From: Calditrichia bacterium
GTDB taxonomy: Bacteria > Calditrichota > Calditrichia > RBG-13-44-9 > J075
NCBI GenBank assembly: GCA_050633245.1
Contig: JBOEGD010000024.1
Coordinates: 160,001 to 224,000 of the forward strand
Length of the DNA stretch: 64,000 nucleotides
Direction: 5' to 3'
Shown: one piece after another, positions 1 to 23,853 of the stretch
Layout of the letters: each line of letters begins with the position of its first letter
Position numbering within the stretch: the first letter of the stretch is position 1
Position numbers and translations under genes: made by a program
Notes under the pieces: model-generated
Told to the model about the DNA's origin: nothing
What the model saw: the letters and a program-made list of their open reading frames with translations, nothing else
The model's database searches: none

Positions 1-334
1 TGATTTTGAAGTACTTAGTCAGGCCGCCGGTGACGATTTGCTGCCGAATACGCCGGAAACCAAGTTTAACGTCGGTGCTTCTTATACTACCCCCAATTGG
101 GACGCTTCGGTACGCGCTAAATATGTATCCGAGTTCGATTGGGCTGCAGGCGTGTTCTCCGGAACAATTCCGTCTTATGCCACGGTCAATGTTACAGGTG
201 GGTACAATCTAACAGACAATACGCGTATTGGTTTGGTTGTTACGAATCTACTCAACAATGAGCATATTCAGCTATTTGGTGGTTCCGTTATCGGGCGGCG
301 TGCGCTTGCAAATATTTCCTTCAATATTGATTAA
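1..334 (+). CDS. TonB-dependent outer membrane receptor, C-terminal part (5' end outside window)
   Basis: Frame is open from position 2; typical TBDR tail LLPNTPETKFNVGASY...PSYATVNVTGGY...VTNLLNNEH...IGRRALANISFNID. Confidence 0.85.
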   Translation, partial: DFEVLSQAAGDDLLPNTPETKFNVGASYTTPNWDASVRAKYVSEFDWAAGVFSGTIPSYATVNVTGGYNLTDNTRIGLVVTNLLNNEHIQLFGGSVIGRRALANISFNID

Positions 335-17527: not shown

Positions 17528-20158
17528 ATGAGACAGATTTTCGCAATACTCTTTATTTCGTTGGGGCTATTTGCGCAGGAAAACTTGCCGATCTTTTCAT
17601 CTGACTTTTCAGAAGATAAATCTGATGGTGAGATTGCCCAAGCGACAGTTGATTACTGGGAATCCTTCTATCAGGAAAATTATTTTGATAAGGGCTACAG
17701 TTTCGAAGATATGGGGGGAACGGGCTACTATCCATTTCGCCGTATGAAGCACTTTTATGATATGCGCAAAAATGAAAACGGTGAAATTCCATTTCTTTCA
17801 CGCTGGAATGCCTATGAGCAAAGCAAGCAGCAGTTGCTGGACAATAAATCTGCTATTCTGACGGCAAGCTGGGAATCTATGGGACCAAATACCATCGATA
17901 CCCTTGCCGGACGTATGCTTGCTCATGCCTTCGATCCGCTCGACAATAAGATTATCTGGGCAGGTTCTGGCTCCGGCGGGCTTTGGAAATCGCTAAACGC
18001 CGGGGAGTCATGGATACCGGTTACCGATCACCTGCCTTCACTTCGCATCTCGGCTATTGCCATCAATCCAAACGACCGTGACATGATTATTATTGGAACC
18101 GGCACTGGAATGGGCAATAGTTTTACGCTGCAGCCTGGAGTTGGAATCCTGAAATCTACTGATGGCGGACTAACCTGGCAGCAAACGTCTTTTACTTATA
18201 TGCAAAGTCAGGGGGTATCTACCTTTAAGATGATCTGGGATAAATCTAATCCGTCGCGTTTGTATGTGGCTGCCACCAATGGCACCTGGATTTCTGACGA
18301 TCAGGGCGATACCTGGCAGCGGACATTCGTGACACGAACAACAGATATTAAGGTAAATAAGCAGTCTCCCAATATTCTCTATATGGCCTCGCAGAACGCC
18401 GGTATTTATCGCAGCACCGATTTTGGCACAACCTGGGGACGTTTAAACTCTGGCTTACCGAATTCTACGCAAATTGGCTTTTCGCGCGTAGCAATATGTG
18501 ATAGCTTTCCAAATGTGCTTTATGCCGGAATTGCCGATGCTACAACCCAGGCGGTAAGAGGACTCTATCGCTCAGATGACGGTGGTGACAGCTGGATGCA
18601 GCTATCAAATGTGCCGAATGTCTACTGCCAGCCCGGCGCGACTACAAGTTGTCAGGGTTGGTTCTCGAATACGCTTGGCGTGTCTCCGGCAGACCCCGAT
18701 CTGATTTTCTTCGGTGGCGTGCAATTCTGGCGCTCAGATGACGGCGGGTCGACGTGGACATGGCATGATTATCTTTCCAATGGCACGGGAACCGGTAACA
18801 TGGGACTTGTTTACGTCGATCAGATGGACATAGGCTTCGACCCGGTCGATCCGCAAACGATCTACGTGTTTAACGATGGTGGAATCCAAAAATCAACAGA
18901 CAACGGGCTTTGGTGGGAACGCATCAACCAGGATCTGGTAACCGCGCAGCTCTATGGCATTGCCAGTTCACAGACCGTTCCAGAGCGAATGATTGGTGGA
19001 TTTCAGGATCATGGTTTGCAGAAGGTTGATGGCCGAGGTGGTAATCTTGCCTGGAAACGCTGGACGACTTTCGATGGCGCTGGTGGCAATATCGATCACC
19101 AAAACTCCGATATCATTTATGGCGTATGGAATCTGGGAACACACTTTAAATCGTTGGATTTTGGAAACAGCGCGTTTCCGATAATGAATGGCATTACTGA
19201 GGGTGGTGTTTGGCTTACACCACAAGTGATGCATCCGGAAGATCCGAAAATACTATATACGGCCAGCACACTAAAAATTTATAAAACGGTTAATGGCGCC
19301 AACTGGACGGCCGTCGCTGCGATACCCAATGTGAATACGATCGCCATAGATCAGGTTAACCCGGATATTATTTATGCACATTCCTATACCGGAACTTCCT
19401 GGACGATTTGGCGCTCCAATGATGCTGGTGCTAACTGGGCGGCTATTAACGATCCAACCATTCCTAGCTGGCGTGTGCGTGATTTAGAAGCCGACCCCTC
19501 GAATGAAGGTATTGTCTATGCAGTGCGTAATAGTGCATTTGCCAATCGCGATCACGTTAAAAAGTCTGTCGACTATGGTAATACCTGGCAGGATATCACG
19601 AATAATCTGCCTGATATTCCAACCAATGCGATTGCGATCAGTCCGTTCAATTCTGACCATCTTTATCTGGCAACCGATCTTGGAATTTATCTCTCGACAA
19701 ACGGTGGTGGCGAATGGCTGGAATACAACGACGGTTTGCCATTGGTATACGCGTCTGACATTCACTACCACCCGGTAGACAGCACACTGCGAATCGCAAC
19801 GCTGGGAAGAGGCGTATGGAAGTCACGCTCGGCGGATGTGACTGTTGGTGTAGCACCGAACCAGCAATCGTCTATTCCGAACCGCTTTAGCATCGAGCAA
19901 AATTACCCAAATCCATTCAACCCCGAGACGGTGGTGAACTACGAATTGTTTGCCTCCGCAGCAGTCCAGGTCGAGGTTTTCAACGAGCTTGGTCAGAGTG
20001 TTGCTTTTTTATATGAGGGAAATAAAGCTGCCGGGCGCCATCAACTTACCTGGGATGGTCGCAATGACATCGGAAATGTTGTTGCCACCGGAAACTATTT
20101 TCTAAGGATAACCGCCGATGGTATTGCCAAAACAATAAAAATGAATTTTGTTAAATAA
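17528..20158 (+). CDS. Secreted BNR/Asp-box (sortilin/GH74-like) beta-propeller protein with FlgD/T9SS-like CTD
   Basis: Signal peptide; WESMGP..AGR; many SxDxGxTW Asp-boxes; ATLGRGVW; NYPNPFNP CTD. Confidence 0.88.
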   Translation: MRQIFAILFISLGLFAQENLPIFSSDFSEDKSDGEIAQATVDYWESFYQENYFDKGYSFEDMGGTGYYPFRRMKHFYDMRKNENGEIPFLSRWNAYEQSKQQLLDNKSAILTASWESMGPNTIDTLAGRMLAHAFDPLDNKIIWAGSGSGGLWKSLNAGESWIPVTDHLPSLRISAIAINPNDRDMIIIGTGTGMGNSFTLQPGVGILKSTDGGLTWQQTSFTYMQSQGVSTFKMIWDKSNPSRLYVAATNGTWISDDQGDTWQRTFVTRTTDIKVNKQSPNILYMASQNAGIYRSTDFGTTWGRLNSGLPNSTQIGFSRVAICDSFPNVLYAGIADATTQAVRGLYRSDDGGDSWMQLSNVPNVYCQPGATTSCQGWFSNTLGVSPADPDLIFFGGVQFWRSDDGGSTWTWHDYLSNGTGTGNMGLVYVDQMDIGFDPVDPQTIYVFNDGGIQKSTDNGLWWERINQDLVTAQLYGIASSQTVPERMIGGFQDHGLQKVDGRGGNLAWKRWTTFDGAGGNIDHQNSDIIYGVWNLGTHFKSLDFGNSAFPIMNGITEGGVWLTPQVMHPEDPKILYTASTLKIYKTVNGANWTAVAAIPNVNTIAIDQVNPDIIYAHSYTGTSWTIWRSNDAGANWAAINDPTIPSWRVRDLEADPSNEGIVYAVRNSAFANRDHVKKSVDYGNTWQDITNNLPDIPTNAIAISPFNSDHLYLATDLGIYLSTNGGGEWLEYNDGLPLVYASDIHYHPVDSTLRIATLGRGVWKSRSADVTVGVAPNQQSSIPNRFSIEQNYPNPFNPETVVNYELFASAAVQVEVFNELGQSVAFLYEGNKAAGRHQLTWDGRNDIGNVVATGNYFLRITADGIAKTIKMNFVK

Positions 20159-20160
20159 GG

Positions 20161-20195
20161 TTCAGTAGCACCACAATGTTTGTGGTGCTACTGAA
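20161..20195. terminator. Inverted-repeat terminator
   Basis: TTCAGTAGCACCACAA-TGT-TTGTGGTGCTACTGAA immediately after the stop at 20158. Confidence 0.8.
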
Positions 20196-20284
20196 GTCAT
20201 CATTGTTCCTCGCTGTATTTTTCCTTACATTTCTAGAATAGCATTCTATTTAGCTTATTGCCTTAACACGTAAGGAGATATTTT

Positions 20285-21073
20285 ATGAAACGCATAATGT
20301 TTTTTTTGCTGATATTAGGCTTCCTGGCTACAGCAAATGGACAAAATGTGGGAGAGCCTGCACCGGACTTCAGCTTTAACACGCTTGAGCACGGACAAAT
20401 CTCGCTTTCTCAATTTCAAGGTAAGGTGATTTATATGTTTATGTTTGGCTTTTCCTGAGGATTTTGCCGCCAGGTTGGTCCAACCACACAAGCATTAAAT
20501 CAGATGTATCAGAACGAAAACTTCCAAGCCATTGGCTTTGATTATTGGAATGGCAGTAGTGCACAGGTGCAGGGATTTAAATCTGCAACCGGCATTACCT
20601 ATCCGTTGGCGATGTTAGCAGGCAGTATGTCATCACTTTACGCAATTACCTACGATCGCAATCTTATCGTCGATCAGGCCGGGCTTATTTTTTATAAGGG
20701 CACCGGGGTAGCAAGCGGAGACATCAACGATGTTTTTGGCATGGTCGAGATGTTGCTAAGCCCTACTGGTATCGGTGACGACGAAGAAGTCGCAGAGTCT
20801 TATGTATTGCGCCAAAACTATCCGAATCCGTTTAACCCTACCACACAAATTTCATTTACGCTCCCGGCAGTTGAAAATGTGAGTATCCGCATTTATGATG
20901 TTTCCGGGAAGCTCGTTCGCACATTACTTTCAGGGCAGATGAATGCCGGAACGCATGAGCTCTACTGGAATGGCCGTTCCGATGCGGGTGAAGATGTAAG
21001 CTCGGGTGTTTATCTATATCGAATGGATACCGAGAGTTTCAGCGAGTCCCGCAAGATGATCCTGAATCGCTAA
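20285..21073 (+). CDS. Predicted selenoprotein: secreted TlpA/AhpC-TSA-type redoxin (UxxC) fused to FlgD/T9SS-like CTD, 262 aa with Sec58
   Basis: SD AAGGAG then ATG 20285; MKRIMFFLLILGFLATANG-QNVGEPAPDFSFNTLEHGQISLSQFQGKVIYMFMFGFS-TGA(20456-20458)-GFCRQVGP; continues in frame into the ORF-track 20504..21073 protein. Confidence 0.85.
20461..20500 (+). promoter_or_regulatory. Putative bacterial SECIS hairpin
   Basis: Apical stem GGTTG(20473-77)/CAACC(20481-85) with G-starting loop about 19 nt after the UGA; lower pairings TGC/GCA and ATTT/AAAT. Confidence 0.7.
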
Positions 21074-21264: not shown

Positions 21265-23853
21265 ATGCGCCTCATTATCGCTGTGATTCTATCCATGCTG
21301 TTTCTTATGCTTTATCTTTTCACGGGGCAGGAAACTACGCCCTCAGAAGATAAAATTTCCGGAGCCTATCAGGCCTTGAATATGCTTGGTGCACAGCGAA
21401 CCTACCCGTTTCAACAGCTTCCTGAGAATGCACATTATGCTGCTTTTGAACAAGCAAAGGCGCTGCGTGCATCGAAAAATAAAACGCTGCATAACGATTC
21501 CGAATGGAACGACATCGGTCCTAAAAATCTTGGTGGTCGCACCCTCACCGTAGCGCTGAACCCGCAGAATCCGTCCACGGTTTATGCTGGTTCAGCGAGC
21601 GGCGGCCTCTGGCGAAGCTATTCAGAAGGAAGAGGCGTTGATGCCTGGGAATATGTATCTACCGGATTTCCTACCCTGGCCGTTAGCTCAATAACGTTTG
21701 CTCCCGGGGATTCTTCGACAATGTATCTCGGTACAGGTGAGGTCTACAATTATAGTGCTGCGGGAACCGGCGCTGCTTACCGCTCAACGCGCGGTAGTTA
21801 TGGTATCGGTATTTTGAAATCAACCGACGGCGGCGCAACCTGGGCCAAAAGCTTAGACTGGAGTTATAATCAGCAGCATGGTGTTTGGGCAATTAAGGTG
21901 AATCCACTTAATCCCAATACCGTTTGGGCTGCTACCACAGAAGGTGTCTATAAGTCGACCGATGCCGGTACTAACTGGAATCATGTTCTGGACGTTATAA
22001 TGGCGACCGATCTGCAAATTAGTCCGGTTGATACCAATATCGTGTTTGCGGGCTGCGGAAACTTCGCCTCTATCGGCCACGGTGTTTACCGCAGCACTGA
22101 TAGTGGAACCAATTGGGATAAATTATCTGAGGGCTTACCTGCCACATTCAATGGCAAGATTTTATTGGACATGACGAACCTGCCGCTTGGCAATACCCTG
22201 TATGCCAGTATTGGAAACGGCTTTTCATTCAGCGATGGCTTTAGCTGGCTGTGCAGCAGTGTTGATAATGGTGAGAACTGGACAATTGAAACGACACTCG
22301 ATTATTCCAAATGGCAGGGATGGTACTCGCATGATGTTGCGGTAAATCCCACCAATCCACAGGAAGTATTTACCGTTGGAATTGAGATTTATAAGTCCAC
22401 CAATGGCGGAAGTAATCTCGCTATAAAATCGACGAATGGAACATTCTCAGGCAGAGTTCCGCCGGAAGGTCCGGAAGGCCCGGCGACCTATTCGCATCCC
22501 GATCACCATGAGGTTGTGTATCATCCAACTGATTCGAATATTTTATATTTCGCCAATGATGGTGGTGTATTTCGCACTATTGATGGTGGCGAAACATTTG
22601 AAAGTTGCAACGGCGGCCTTCAAACCAGTCAGTTTTACGGTGGTTTTTCCAGCGCGGTAACCGATTCCCAGCGGGCGATTGGGGGCTTTCAGGATAACTC
22701 TACAGCAATCTACGATGGTCAGGATGCCTGGCTTGTCCGCTTAATAGGCGGTGACGGTGGTTGGGCAGCAATTGATCAGACTAATGCACAGGTTATGTAT
22801 GGTTCCTCTCAGTTCCTGAACGTCTCTAAATCGACCAATGGGGGGCAATTTTTCTTTAACGTCGGCGTACCTGGGAACAACAACCCAACCGTTTTTATTG
22901 CGCCATTTGTATTAGCGCCGCAAAATCCACAGATCATCTACGCTGCAAGAAACATCGTGTATCAGTCTGAAGATGGTGGCAGCAGCTGGAATTCGCTAAA
23001 CAACGGCCTTCCAATTGACGGCAATCCAGTTTTGGCAATGGATGTTTCCGCGTCGAACAGTGATGTGGTTTATGTGGCGACTGTGCCATTTAATCGAGCT
23101 CGTGGCGTGCATCGTACGCTGGATGGTGGAAATACCTGGACTGAGATTACCGGCAATCTACCGGATCGCTTTCCGGGAGATATTGCAATCGATCCGACAG
23201 ACCCCGCAACTGTTTACATTACGTTCTCTGGGTTTGGAACGGACCATGTATATAAGTCAAATGACTCTGGTAGCAGCTGGACCGCTATTGGGCAGGTTTT
23301 ACCCGATGTGCCCACGAGTGCAGTAATCGTTGACCCACTGTATCCTGAGCATGTTTATGTCGGTAATGACATCGGAGTGTTTGCATCAACCGATGGTGGT
23401 ATCACCTGGAGCGACTATAGCGATGCATTGCCGGATGCGGTGATGGTCTTCGACTTGGCAATCTCTCCTCTGAATCGCAAGCTGCGGATCGGCACTCATG
23501 GAAATGGTGCCTATGAGAGACCCTTGATCGACGGCTCTGTTGGAGTAGAGCCATCACCATCAAACGTGACCGAGGCATTTACTCTTTATCAGAATTACCC
23601 AAATCCGTTCAACCCGGAAACGACCATAGCATTCGAACTGAGCCAGCGAGAGGCAGTTACCCTGCGGATATTCAATAGTTTGGGACAAGAGGTTCGCACG
23701 CTGATAGAAAATAATGTTCGCAATGCCGGTCGACATGAGGTCAGTTGGAATGGCCGAAATAACTCCGGTGAGCGGGTCGCCAGTGGCGTGTATCTTTATC
23801 AGCTAAAGGCTGGTTCGGCGGCCACGTCCCGCCGAATGATCCTTTCGCAATAG
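21265..23853 (+). CDS. Secreted BNR/Asp-box beta-propeller protein with FlgD/T9SS-like CTD
   Basis: WNDIGPKNLGGRT; repeated KSTDGGATW boxes; HPDHH; GTHGNGAY; NYPNPFNP CTD. Paralogous to 17528..20158. Confidence 0.88.
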   Translation: MRLIIAVILSMLFLMLYLFTGQETTPSEDKISGAYQALNMLGAQRTYPFQQLPENAHYAAFEQAKALRASKNKTLHNDSEWNDIGPKNLGGRTLTVALNPQNPSTVYAGSASGGLWRSYSEGRGVDAWEYVSTGFPTLAVSSITFAPGDSSTMYLGTGEVYNYSAAGTGAAYRSTRGSYGIGILKSTDGGATWAKSLDWSYNQQHGVWAIKVNPLNPNTVWAATTEGVYKSTDAGTNWNHVLDVIMATDLQISPVDTNIVFAGCGNFASIGHGVYRSTDSGTNWDKLSEGLPATFNGKILLDMTNLPLGNTLYASIGNGFSFSDGFSWLCSSVDNGENWTIETTLDYSKWQGWYSHDVAVNPTNPQEVFTVGIEIYKSTNGGSNLAIKSTNGTFSGRVPPEGPEGPATYSHPDHHEVVYHPTDSNILYFANDGGVFRTIDGGETFESCNGGLQTSQFYGGFSSAVTDSQRAIGGFQDNSTAIYDGQDAWLVRLIGGDGGWAAIDQTNAQVMYGSSQFLNVSKSTNGGQFFFNVGVPGNNNPTVFIAPFVLAPQNPQIIYAARNIVYQSEDGGSSWNSLNNGLPIDGNPVLAMDVSASNSDVVYVATVPFNRARGVHRTLDGGNTWTEITGNLPDRFPGDIAIDPTDPATVYITFSGFGTDHVYKSNDSGSSWTAIGQVLPDVPTSAVIVDPLYPEHVYVGNDIGVFASTDGGITWSDYSDALPDAVMVFDLAISPLNRKLRIGTHGNGAYERPLIDGSVGVEPSPSNVTEAFTLYQNYPNPFNPETTIAFELSQREAVTLRIFNSLGQEVRTLIENNVRNAGRHEVSWNGRNNSGERVASGVYLYQLKAGSAATSRRMILSQ

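What the first reader, a model, noticed from the sequence alone, without database searches (positions are those of the whole stretch)
20285..21073. Hidden secreted selenoprotein: UxxC redoxin fused to a T9SS/FlgD-like sorting domain
Seen: SD (AAGGAG) and ATG at 20285 open a frame encoding a signal peptide and a redoxin start (VGEPAPDFSF..GQISLSQFQGKVIYMFMF). It reaches TGA at codon 58 (20456-58), exactly where the first Cys of the thioredoxin CxxC motif belongs (FGFS-U-GF-C). The same frame then continues without stops through the rest of the fold and an NYPNPFNP CTD, and a hairpin follows the TGA. The ORF track only calls the 189-aa downstream part. Established: UGA at the catalytic position of Trx-fold proteins plus a 3' stem-loop is the signature of Sec recoding. 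Inference: this is a Sec-containing thiol oxidoreductase exported by a signal peptide and tagged for surface or extracellular delivery, which is unusual for bacterial selenoproteins. The usual cis-Pro loop also seems replaced (YAITYDRNLIVD). I cannot verify whether the family is already described.
Basis: partly seen in the sequence, partly recalled or inferred. Interest (0 to 1): 0.92.

Follow-up and report, generated by a model that had tools for sequence, protein, structure and literature searches.

The report
Surface-sorted selenocysteine redoxin gene
This is a real but mis-split gene for a thioredoxin-fold enzyme that uses selenocysteine in place of its first active-site cysteine and carries a tag for export to the cell surface, which is a new variant of a known selenoprotein type.

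Summary
Window 20285-21073 (+) reads through one TGA (20456-58, codon 58) to give 262 aa: signal peptide, redoxin domain with U58-x-x-C61, disordered linker and a T9SS type-A sorting domain.

The evidence for selenocysteine is strong:
- The genome has selA, selB, tRNA-Sec and a SelD that is itself a Sec form.
- TGA sits at this exact column in 24 of 45 family matches in 86 genomes of the phylum. The other 21 matches have no in-frame stop, and all 9 of those I extracted carry Cys at this column. U-forms also occur in two other phyla.
- A hairpin of at least 5 bp capped about 23 nt after the UGA is kept in 21 of 21 U-forms and 1 of 9 Cys-forms, with at least 8 different stem sequences.
- selA is present in 21 of 22 genomes with U-forms. 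It is present in 0 of 10 genomes of the one family that has only Cys-forms.

The domain is TlpA/ResA-like in fold but lacks the cis-Pro. It fits the long-known "Prx-like UxxC" selenoprotein class.

Three features turned up in none of my searches of the literature: the T9SS tail, a dockerin tail in another phylum, and a conserved cassette of TlpA-like thioredoxin, DUF6029 outer-membrane barrel and this redoxin. That cassette is split in this genome.

No expression or secretion data exist. Verdict: a genuine gene and a new variant of a known kind, of moderate to high interest.

The parts
20161..20195 (.). 16-bp perfect palindromic hairpin between the upstream gene's stop (20158) and this gene. 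It is terminator-like and separates the two genes.
20272..20277 (+). Shine-Dalgarno AAGGAG, 7 nt before the ATG
   Evidence: read directly
20285..21073 (+). Full selenoprotein coding sequence of 262 aa plus stop. It has one in-frame TGA read as Sec.
20285..20341 (+). N-terminal signal peptide (MKRIMFFLLILGFLATANG), judged by inspection. No signal-peptide predictor was run.
   Evidence: helix 2-14 in the model; equivalent hydrophobic N-termini in 29 homologs
20348..20764 (+). Redoxin domain (residues 22-160). It has a TlpA/ResA-like thioredoxin fold with active site U58-G-F-C61 and Asp124 where ResA has the cis-Pro.
20456..20458 (+). TGA, the selenocysteine codon (U58). It aligns with the first Cys of CxxC in Cys-form homologs.
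20473..20485 (+). Family-conserved SECIS-like hairpin GGUUG-GUC-CAACC. Its apex lies 22-25 nt after the U of UGA and carries the G-G-U-C motif also seen in this genome's SelD SECIS.
20768..20830 (+). Low-confidence, probably disordered linker (residues 162-182, pLDDT below 50)
20819..21064 (+). T9SS type-A C-terminal sorting domain (Por_Secre_tail / TIGR04183; NYPNPFNP motif). It is modelled as a beta-sandwich at high confidence.
17528..20158 (+). Upstream neighbour on the same strand: 876-aa Sortilin/VPS10-repeat protein with a T9SS tail. This is context and not shown to be functionally linked.
21265..23853 (+). Downstream neighbour on the same strand: 862-aa Sortilin/VPS10-repeat protein with a T9SS tail. 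This is context only.

Best explanation
The two called ORFs are one gene for a selenoprotein.

Shown or strongly supported:
- UGA at codon 58 is decoded as selenocysteine by the genome's SelA/SelB/tRNA-Sec/SelD system.
- Decoding is guided by a small hairpin inside the coding sequence whose G-rich apex lies about 22-25 nt after the UGA.
- The product has an N-terminal signal peptide, a thioredoxin-fold redoxin domain of the TlpA/ResA/'Prx-like' kind with active site U-x-x-C, a flexible linker and a type-A T9SS sorting domain.

Inferred:
- The Sec translocon carries the protein to the periplasm.
- The T9SS (SprA/PorV/PorU, all present) takes it across the outer membrane.
- The tail is cleaved, and the redoxin is anchored on the cell surface or released.
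- There it acts as a selenol-based thiol-disulfide oxidoreductase or thiol peroxidase on extracellular or surface substrates.
- Selenocysteine would keep it reactive, and less prone to irreversible over-oxidation, in a compartment without dedicated reductases.
- In most relatives the gene lies in a cassette with a canonical TlpA-like thioredoxin and a DUF6029 outer-membrane barrel. That cassette probably supplies its redox partner. In this genome those two genes sit on another contig.
For: Sec machinery in the genome:
- selD scores 359 bits and itself carries an in-frame TGA at KTCG-U-AAK.
- selA scores 561 bits and selB 360 bits, and the two are adjacent.
- tRNA-Sec scores 71 bits against a gathering score of 47, and ARAGORN calls tRNA-SeC with anticodon tca.

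Sec/Cys pairing in homologs:
- In 86 genomes of the phylum, 34 have a match at E<=1e-15. Of the 45 matches, 24 have exactly one in-frame TGA and 21 have none.
- In the 30 loci I extracted there are 21 U-forms and 9 Cys-forms, always at the same alignment column.
- Sequence is conserved on both sides of the TGA. A26, F29, L41, G46 and G55 lie upstream; C61, G65 and G84 lie downstream.

Hairpin:
- A stem of at least 5 bp with a 3-6 nt loop over position 23 is present in 21 of 21 U-forms and 1 of 9 Cys-forms.
- Synonymous-codon resampling gives about 0.16 per sequence.
- At least 8 different stem sequences occur: GGTTG/CAACC, TATCCG/CGGGTA, GCTGT/ACAGC, TGTCTG/CAGACA, GCTGCC/GGCAGC, AGCCG/CGGCT, AGTGCT/AGCACT and CCGTC/GGCGG.
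- GGCTG/CAGCC and GGGCGGT/ACCGTCC occur in two other phyla.
- This genome's own SelD SECIS has a GGUC tetraloop at +21..24.

Co-occurrence with selA:
- selA is found in 21 of 22 genomes with a U-form and in 2 of 12 genomes with only Cys-forms.
- The one taxonomic family without selA (0 of 10 genomes) has only Cys-forms.

Fold:
- The AF2 model has mean pLDDT 84, with the redoxin domain and the tail mostly above 90.
- Foldseek finds 2ls5, 3kcm, ResA and DsbE with target TM-scores of 0.78-0.90. The profile search of PDB sequences gives the same proteins.

T9SS machinery:
- PorU scores 790 and 539 bits (two copies), PorV 253 bits, and SprA 755 bits summed. All are over their cut-offs.

Independent assembly:
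- A relative's contig in run X2 reads FGYS-TGA (table 7).
Against: - There is no expression, 75Se, mass-spectrometry or secretion evidence. No RNA run holds the stretch.
- In this sequence alone the conserved hairpin is short (5 bp). It competes with a more stable, non-conserved hairpin, and neither beats shuffled controls. The SECIS call therefore rests on comparison.
- One Cys-form in the phylum (L135) and the one Cys-form in the KSB1-labelled phylum (L161) also meet the hairpin criterion.
- One U-form genome (G057, 81% complete) showed no selA.
- T9SS function has, to my knowledge, been demonstrated experimentally only in Bacteroidota (recalled), not in this phylum.
- The substrate, the direction of the redox reaction and the reductant are unknown.
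- In this genome the gene is not next to the TlpA-like and DUF6029 genes.
- The signal peptide was judged by eye.
Confidence: 0.85

Rival explanations
1. Pseudogene or assembly error. Under this reading TGA is a recent nonsense mutation or a sequencing slip in a Cys-form redoxin gene, and nothing beyond a 57-aa fragment is made.
For: Table 11 splits the frame. Public protein collections hold only the 189-aa downstream piece for this gene and for two close relatives. One relative's copy (G047, L144) has an extra in-frame TAA, so broken copies do occur.
Against: TGA stands at the identical column in 24 of 45 matches in the phylum and in two more phyla. Sequence is conserved on both sides of it. 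The hairpin covaries. The TGA forms co-occur with selA. An independent assembly keeps the TGA.
Confidence: 0.02
2. It is a genuine selenoprotein but it is not delivered outside. In this phylum the C-terminal beta-sandwich would act only as an Ig-like or FlgD-like module, or the protein would stay in the periplasm or at the inner face of the outer membrane. There it would work like an ordinary TlpA/ResA-type periplasmic reductase.
For: FlgD_ig scores as well as Por_Secre_tail. T9SS cargo export has not been shown experimentally in this phylum (recalled). The closest folds are periplasmic or extracytoplasmic reductases. Some family members are lipoproteins without any tail (L133, L135, L138).
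Against: TIGR04183 is over its curated cut-off. PorU, PorV and SprA are all present over their cut-offs. The genome has a very large set of proteins with the same tail (226 first-look candidates of which 51 were scored; 277 first-look candidates), including both neighbours. In another phylum the same redoxin carries a dockerin-like tail, another extracellular module.
Confidence: 0.12
3. Its chemistry is peroxide removal and not disulfide exchange. It would be a surface thiol (selenol) peroxidase of the Prx/BCP type, protecting an anaerobe's surface from oxidants.
For: The best Pfam hit is AhpC-TSA. The cis-Pro is absent, as I recall is the case in Prx and GPx. Arg125 follows Asp124, as in the Prx 'xR' position, in this protein and its nearest relatives. 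BCP and AhpC structures are among the Foldseek hits. There are weak GSHPx hits.
Against: The motif is U-x-x-C and not T/S-x-x-C(U). The Arg is not conserved across the family; W, V, Y, H, F, I and K also occur at that column. The top sequence and fold matches are TlpA/ResA/DsbE reductases.
Confidence: 0.2

Closest known systems
'Prx-like thiol:disulfide oxidoreductase' selenoproteins (PF00578, UxxC). [quoted passage not shown]
   Same: PF00578 hit over its cut-off. UxxC with Sec in the first position. Cys-form homologs. SECIS with a small apical loop holding G.
   Different: None of the passages I read mention a signal peptide, a T9SS tail, a dockerin tail or a DUF6029 neighbour. I could not compare directly with the family's reference sequences. 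Supplements were closed.
ResA / TlpA / DsbE extracytoplasmic thiol-disulfide reductases (PDB 1su9, 4nmu, 3gl3) and the Bacteroides thetaiotaomicron putative PDI 2ls5
   Same: Same fold (target TM 0.78-0.90). N-terminal export signal. CxxC-type site at the start of helix 1.
   Different: Sec replaces the first Cys. Asp (or Gln) replaces the cis-Pro. The ResA NCBIfam model scores 41 bits against a cut-off of 170. There is a C-terminal sorting domain.
HBP35 of Porphyromonas gingivalis (PMC2907840, only the start of the abstract seen in the search listing)
   Same: A thioredoxin-like motif plus a conserved C-terminal domain for cell-surface attachment by the Por/T9SS system.
   Different: HBP35 is a Cys protein from Bacteroidota with a haem-binding role. 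I made no direct sequence comparison here.
Predicted exported or lipoprotein selenoproteins of the SAO system (preprint 10.1101/2022.07.06.499078, passages read)
   Same: Selenoproteins with signal or lipoprotein signal peptides, 'exposed to the extracellular milieu'. Typically truncated in databases at the TGA.
   Different: Different folds (ABC substrate-binding proteins, small CC-COOH proteins). Found in Firmicutes without an outer membrane. No T9SS.

Membership tests
Bacterial selenoprotein (SelB/SECIS-dependent UGA recoding) | In-frame UGA aligned with Cys in homologs | tested here: met
   21 U-forms and 9 Cys-forms at one column in 30 loci; 24 of 45 matches carry TGA.
Bacterial selenoprotein (SelB/SECIS-dependent UGA recoding) | Stem-loop just downstream of the UGA with a small apical loop holding G | tested here: met
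   Present in 21 of 21 U-forms and 1 of 9 Cys-forms, with at least 8 stem variants. It is not significant by single-sequence energy. No Rfam hit.
Bacterial selenoprotein (SelB/SECIS-dependent UGA recoding) | selA, selB, selC and selD in the genome | tested here: met
   selA co-occurs with U-forms in 21 of 22 genomes, against 2 of 12 Cys-only genomes.
Bacterial selenoprotein (SelB/SECIS-dependent UGA recoding) | Selenium in the protein | not testable with these tools
   Needs 75Se labelling or mass spectrometry.
Prx-like UxxC selenoprotein class (PF00578) | PF00578 domain with U-x-x-C | tested here: met
   AhpC-TSA scores 42.6 bits against a cut-off of 26; the motif is U58-G-F-C61.
Prx-like UxxC selenoprotein class (PF00578) | Direct homology to the class's reference proteins | not tested
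TlpA/ResA/DsbE thiol-disulfide reductases | Thioredoxin fold with the TlpA-type insertion, and extracytoplasmic location | tested here: met
   Foldseek target TM 0.78-0.90; signal peptide judged by inspection.
TlpA/ResA/DsbE thiol-disulfide reductases | Conserved cis-Pro opposite the active site | tested here: not met
   Asp124 aligns with the ResA cis-Pro. There is no Pro in that column in 29 of 29 members. This rests on sequence alignment and was not checked in 3D.
TlpA/ResA/DsbE thiol-disulfide reductases | Score over the curated family cut-off | tested here: not met
   ResA NF002854 scores 41 against 170 bits; TlpA NF047696 scores 25 against 230 bits.
Peroxiredoxin (AhpC/TSA, BCP) | T/S-x-x-C peroxidatic motif and a conserved Arg | tested here: not met
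   The motif is S-U-x-x-C. The Arg is present here but not conserved in the family.
T9SS type-A cargo | C-terminal sorting domain over its cut-off, plus an N-terminal signal peptide | tested here: met
   TIGR04183 scores 43 against 23 bits; PF18962 scores 37 against 27 bits. The signal peptide was judged by inspection.
T9SS type-A cargo | T9SS translocon and sortase in the genome | tested here: met
   PorU, SprA and PorV are all over their cut-offs. GldK/L/M/N were not searched.
T9SS type-A cargo | T9SS-dependent secretion and tail cleavage | not testable with these tools
   Needs fractionation and mutants.

The most novel reading that the evidence does not exclude
The Sec redoxin may be the outermost member of a thiol/selenol electron relay across the outer membrane.

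The proposed path is: inner-membrane DsbD, then a periplasmic canonical TlpA-like thioredoxin, then the DUF6029 outer-membrane barrel through its invariant C-x-x-x-x-C pair, then the T9SS-anchored Sec redoxin on the surface. This would deliver reducing power outside the cell without haem.

The basis is:
- The gene order TlpA-like, DUF6029, redoxin-CTD is kept in 15 of 19 wider loci, across three phyla.
- A cluster of proteins in another phylum fuses a redoxin domain to DUF6029.
- All the parts are present in this genome, although split over two contigs.
Probability: 0.2. Interest if true: 0.85.

Novelty: new variant of a known kind. Interest (0 to 1): 0.62.

Why it matters
- Gene callers systematically cut this family in two. 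The large protein collection returned only truncated tails (189, 168 and 153 aa) for this gene and its two closest relatives, which hides a widespread selenoprotein in Calditrichota and neighbouring phyla.
- It places selenocysteine chemistry on or outside the outer membrane of anaerobic sediment bacteria, by a secretion route for which my searches found no selenoprotein cargo.
- The loss of selA together with a switch to Cys in one whole taxonomic family is a clean natural experiment on Sec/Cys exchange.
- The conserved cassette gives DUF6029 a first concrete functional context: a redox partner instead of, or besides, the polysaccharide export suggested for it.
- It also suggests a testable haem-free way to move reducing equivalents across an outer membrane.

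Tried and rejected
- Rfam at gathering thresholds found nothing in the window. Bacterial SECIS elements are too variable for that search.
- RNAalifold on the ungapped 48-nt alignment of 21 U-forms predicted no pairs. The hairpin sits in three registers, so I counted it with a script of my own instead.
- A first, stricter criterion with both G22 and G23 unpaired gave 16 of 21 U-forms and 0 of 9 Cys-forms. I replaced it with the criterion 'loop covers position 23'. The criterion was therefore chosen after seeing the data.
- Window-wide folding energies do not separate the two forms. The mean is -8.0 kcal/mol for U-forms and -7.4 for Cys-forms.
- The search for related loci in genome contigs was swamped by the sorting-domain motif. 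All 80 loci it kept matched only the tail. It served only for record titles.
- The search for homologous proteins with residues 1-175 returned 3 proteins, all of them truncated tails.
- The look-up of sequencing runs listed no RNA holder and no run with more than 0.16 of the words. I make no statement on expression or habitat.
- Read laying used contigs only. Run X3 holds a contig of about 88% identity over the whole stretch. The list of differences was cut ('83 more not shown'), so I do not use X3 for codon 58.
- Complex prediction gave no result (see below).
- The class of the genome whose record title reads Ignavibacteriota gave 0 matches in 121 genomes at E<=1e-15. That is 'not found in those searched' only.
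- The crude genome-wide scan for U-motifs plus a hairpin gave 62 candidates, mostly noise. It cannot see families without a Cys or Ser/Thr near the U, such as formate dehydrogenase, so it is not a selenoproteome.
- The candidate at C26:110836-111420 (CPFU) has no Pfam hit and stays unconfirmed.
- The second sequence used wrongly guessed coordinates, and I ignore its result.
- An alternative genetic code with TGA read as Trp or Gly was considered. I set it aside because the aligned residue in homologs is Cys, and because TGA ends many ORFs in these loci.
- Supplementary tables of the selenoproteome papers may list this family or this phylum, but I could not see them.
Full report
**1. Observation**

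Window 20285-21073 (+) starts with AAGGAG-N7-ATG. It contains a single in-frame TGA at 20456-58 (codon 58) and stays open to TAA at 21071-73, giving 262 aa. The mechanical ORF list splits it into 57 aa and 189 aa.

The read-through product carries these domains:
- AhpC-TSA/Redoxin at residues 22-144.
- A T9SS type-A sorting domain at residues 179-259. PF18962 scores 37 against a cut-off of 27 bits, and TIGR04183 scores 43 against 23 bits.
- An overlapping FlgD_ig match on the sorting domain.

The TGA stands where the first Cys of CxxC belongs (FGFS-U-GF-C). If the TGA were a stop, the first piece would be a signal peptide plus 37 residues. The second piece would be a sorting domain with no signal peptide and half a redoxin fold. 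Neither makes biological sense (inference).

**2. Does this organism decode UGA as Sec?**

The assembly is G000: 6.35 Mb, 59 contigs, 97% complete. It holds all four components:
- selD at 359 bits.
- selA at 561 bits and selB at 360 bits, side by side.
- tRNA-Sec at 71 bits against a gathering score of 47. ARAGORN also calls it, with anticodon tca.

SelD is itself a selenoprotein (KTCG-U-AAKISP). Its SECIS folds with a GGUC tetraloop at +21..24 from the UGA (-15.2 kcal/mol, z -1.68).

A crude scan of the genome (62 candidates, mostly noise) turned up one more convincing case. It is a 356-aa lipoprotein with a thioredoxin domain and TPR repeats, the motif W-U-G-P-C, and a hairpin AGACC-GGUC-GGUCU. 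Sec decoding is therefore in active use here, and an apical GGUC recurs.

**3. Family evidence**

Phylum label. Record titles of two loci that lie in same-family genomes read 'Calditrichia' and 'Calditrichaceae'. I therefore take the phylum to be Calditrichota.

Counts by group:

| Group searched | Genomes with a match | Matches with one in-frame TGA |
|---|---|---|
| This phylum (Calditrichota), E<=1e-15 | 34 of 86 | 24 of 45 (the other 21 have none) |
| Phylum of a genome titled '...KSB1-1' | 6 of 101 | 5 of 6 (one in the unpublished genome G177) |
| Small two-genome phylum (record title says Gemmatimonadota) | 2 of 2 | 4 of 4 |
| Class of a genome titled Ignavibacteriota | 0 of 121 | none found |

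- I extracted the 30 loci that the tool returned for the first group. 21 are U-forms and 9 are Cys-forms, and U or C always falls in the same column, FG[YWFH]x-[U/C]-x-x-C.
- Residues on both sides of the TGA are conserved. G46, G55, C58, C61 and G84 are invariant.
- In the two-genome phylum the tail is dockerin-like instead of a T9SS domain.
- A maximum-likelihood tree of 39 domains (29 U, 10 C; the G177 row was left out) needs 7 U/C changes on the best tree. At least 2 of them are forced by well-supported branches. Exchange between Sec and Cys has therefore happened repeatedly.

**4. The SECIS**

Single-sequence folding does not help. The MFE hairpin right after the TGA is no better than shuffles.

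Comparison does help:
- Every one of the 21 U-forms has an uninterrupted stem of at least 5 bp whose 3-6 nt loop covers position 23. That position is the conserved Gly codon GGN. Only 1 of 9 Cys-forms has such a stem.
- Resampling synonymous codons of the same proteins yields such a stem in about 16% of trials per U-form.
- The stems differ in sequence while keeping their pairing. Eight variants occur in this phylum, and two more occur in the other phyla.
- In this gene the element is GGUUG-GUC-CAACC at 20473-20485.

Caveats:
- The criterion was refined after a first look.
- Relatives are not independent.
- The hairpin occupies three registers, so RNAalifold saw nothing.
- Two Cys-forms (L135, L161) also meet the criterion.

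[quoted passage not shown] This element fits that description.

**5. An independent test: selA**

- selA is found in 71 of 86 genomes of the phylum.
- Crossing this, 21 of 22 genomes with a U-form have selA. The exception, G057, is 81% complete.
- Of the 12 genomes with only Cys-forms, 2 have selA.
- All 10 genomes of family f5 lack selA, and all 10 carry only Cys-forms.

These genomes are kin, so this is essentially one loss event and not ten. It is still exactly what Sec decoding predicts.

**6. Assembly error?**

A contig of a relative in an independent public run (X2) carries ...TTC GGC TAT TCC TGA... (FGYS-stop) immediately before position 20465. Together with section 3, this excludes a slip.

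**7. What kind of protein it is**

- The AF2 model has mean pLDDT 84. It shows a thioredoxin-fold domain (residues 22-160, mostly above 90), a disordered linker (162-182, below 50) and a beta-sandwich tail (187-260, above 90).
- The nearest solved structures are a B. thetaiotaomicron putative PDI (2ls5), Geobacter 3kcm, ResA and a Chlorobium DsbE, with target TM-scores of 0.78-0.90. A profile search of PDB sequences gives the same proteins.
- The curated ResA and TlpA models are far below their cut-offs.
- The column aligned with the ResA cis-Pro holds Asp in 25 of 29 members and Gln in 4 of 29. It never holds Pro.
- The family therefore works like a TlpA/ResA-type oxidoreductase but is not an equivalog.
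- It matches the long-known, functionally uncharacterised 'Prx-like' selenoprotein class (PF00578, UxxC). That class is listed in the 2026 review PMC13188914 and in PMC1088965 (passages read).

**8. Export**

- The N-terminus looks like a Sec signal peptide (by eye).
- PorU (two copies), PorV and SprA are all over their curated cut-offs.
- The genome has hundreds of candidate tails. Both flanking genes are large Sortilin/VPS10-repeat proteins with the same tail.
- A 16-bp palindrome separates the gene from its upstream neighbour.
- Surface delivery is inferred, not shown.
- The nearest architectural precedent is HBP35 of P. gingivalis, a thioredoxin motif plus a T9SS tail in the Cys form (PMC2907840; only the start of the abstract was seen, in a search listing).

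Literature searches:

| Terms searched together | Papers returned |
|---|---|
| selenoprotein + type IX secretion | 1, irrelevant |
| selenocysteine + T9SS | 2, irrelevant |
| selenoprotein + Caldithrix | 1, irrelevant |

Exported selenoproteins as such are known or predicted:
- DsbA-like and thiol:disulfide interchange families (PMC1088965, PMC13188914).
- SaoB and SaoC (preprint 10.1101/2022.07.06.499078, passages read).

**9. Conserved context elsewhere**

The gene order is conserved. In 26 of 40 short loci, and in 15 of 19 wider loci (this window plus 18 loci of 4.8-14 kb), the order is as follows:
- A canonical TlpA-like thioredoxin (FWATWCKPC, with the cis-Pro IPT).
- A DUF6029 protein.
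- This redoxin with its tail.
- In 11 of the 19 wider loci, an SRPBCC protein follows.

DUF6029 has these properties:
- It is an all-beta protein that matches only outer-membrane barrels.
- A paper reports HHpred similarity to the Wzi barrel (PMC9603273, passages read).
- It has an invariant C-x-x-x-x-C near its C-terminus in 18 of 18 sequences.

The ESM Atlas lists a 59-member cluster in which AhpC-TSA/Redoxin and DUF6029 are fused. This is a lead only.

In this genome the TlpA-like and DUF6029 genes are adjacent on contig C9, and a DsbD-type membrane protein exists. The Sec redoxin gene sits alone in this window. The two closest relatives show the same split.

This suggests a redox relay across the outer membrane. 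It remains a hypothesis.

**10. Verdict**

| Claim | My probability |
|---|---|
| Genuine selenoprotein gene, mis-split by standard annotation | about 0.95 |
| Exported by the T9SS to the surface or the medium | about 0.7 |
| Disulfide or peroxide redox chemistry with a selenol nucleophile | likely; substrate unknown |

The class is known. I found these three features in no paper:
- The sorting-domain fusion.
- The dockerin variant.
- The DUF6029 cassette.

Supplements of the selenoproteome surveys were closed and might list the family. I rate it a new variant of a known kind, with interest 0.62.

Noticed in passing
G000:C30:96625-97695 (-), locus L186: A second exported selenoprotein candidate in the same genome. 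It is a 356-aa lipoprotein (lipobox LLAC) with a thioredoxin domain (W-U-G-P-C) and C-terminal TPR repeats. A hairpin AGACC-GGUC-GGUCU follows the TGA. Pfam hits Thioredoxin_7, Thioredoxin and TPR.
   Followed up: partly
G000:C14:56308-57231 (-), locus L001: This genome's SelD is itself a Sec form (KTCG-U-AAKISP). Its SECIS has a GGUC tetraloop at +21..24.
   Followed up: yes
G000:C26:110836-111420 (+), locus L187: A 194-aa read-through frame with the motif C-P-F-U and a 6-bp hairpin with a GGUC loop at +21. It has no Pfam hit at E<=0.001. It may be an AhpD-like CxxU selenoprotein, but this is unconfirmed.
   Followed up: partly
G000:C9 (locus L166 1048-3084, - strand) and loci L168-L185: A conserved cassette of a canonical TlpA-like thioredoxin, a DUF6029 outer-membrane barrel with an invariant CxxxxC near its C-terminus, and the U/C redoxin with its sorting tail. 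An SRPBCC gene often follows, and a pyridine-nucleotide disulfide oxidoreductase often lies on the opposite strand. An Atlas cluster fuses Redoxin to DUF6029.
   Followed up: partly
L162 (G194), L163-L165 (G195): In a small two-genome phylum, the same U-form redoxin carries a dockerin-like C-terminus (paired D-x-N/D-x-D-G-x-I-D-x-L-D repeats, named by eye) instead of a T9SS tail. One genome has three such paralogs.
   Followed up: partly
L133 (G055), L135 (G038), L138 (G073): Short versions of the same atypical redoxin (about 165-220 aa), with a lipoprotein signal and no tail, sit upstream of the cassette. One of them (G055) is a U-form.
   Followed up: partly
L144 (G047:C296:18420-18818): This U-form copy has an additional in-frame TAA about 93 codons after the Sec codon. 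It is either a broken copy or a sequencing error.
   Followed up: no
L141 (G074), first 30 nt after the TGC that aligns with the Sec codon: This Cys-form has a strong 8-bp hairpin (UUUGCCUU-GGUG-AAGGCAAA) in a different register from the family SECIS. It could be chance or the relic of an older SECIS.
   Followed up: no
window 17528-20158 and 21265-23853 (+): Two paralogous proteins of about 870 aa, with Sortilin/VPS10 repeats and T9SS tails, flank the gene. The downstream one is also next to the homolog in G003.
   Followed up: partly
window 20285-21073 (row L120 in the tree): The tree program flagged this protein's amino-acid composition as unlike the rest of the alignment (chi-square p below 0.001). 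Its terminal branch is long (0.78).
   Followed up: no
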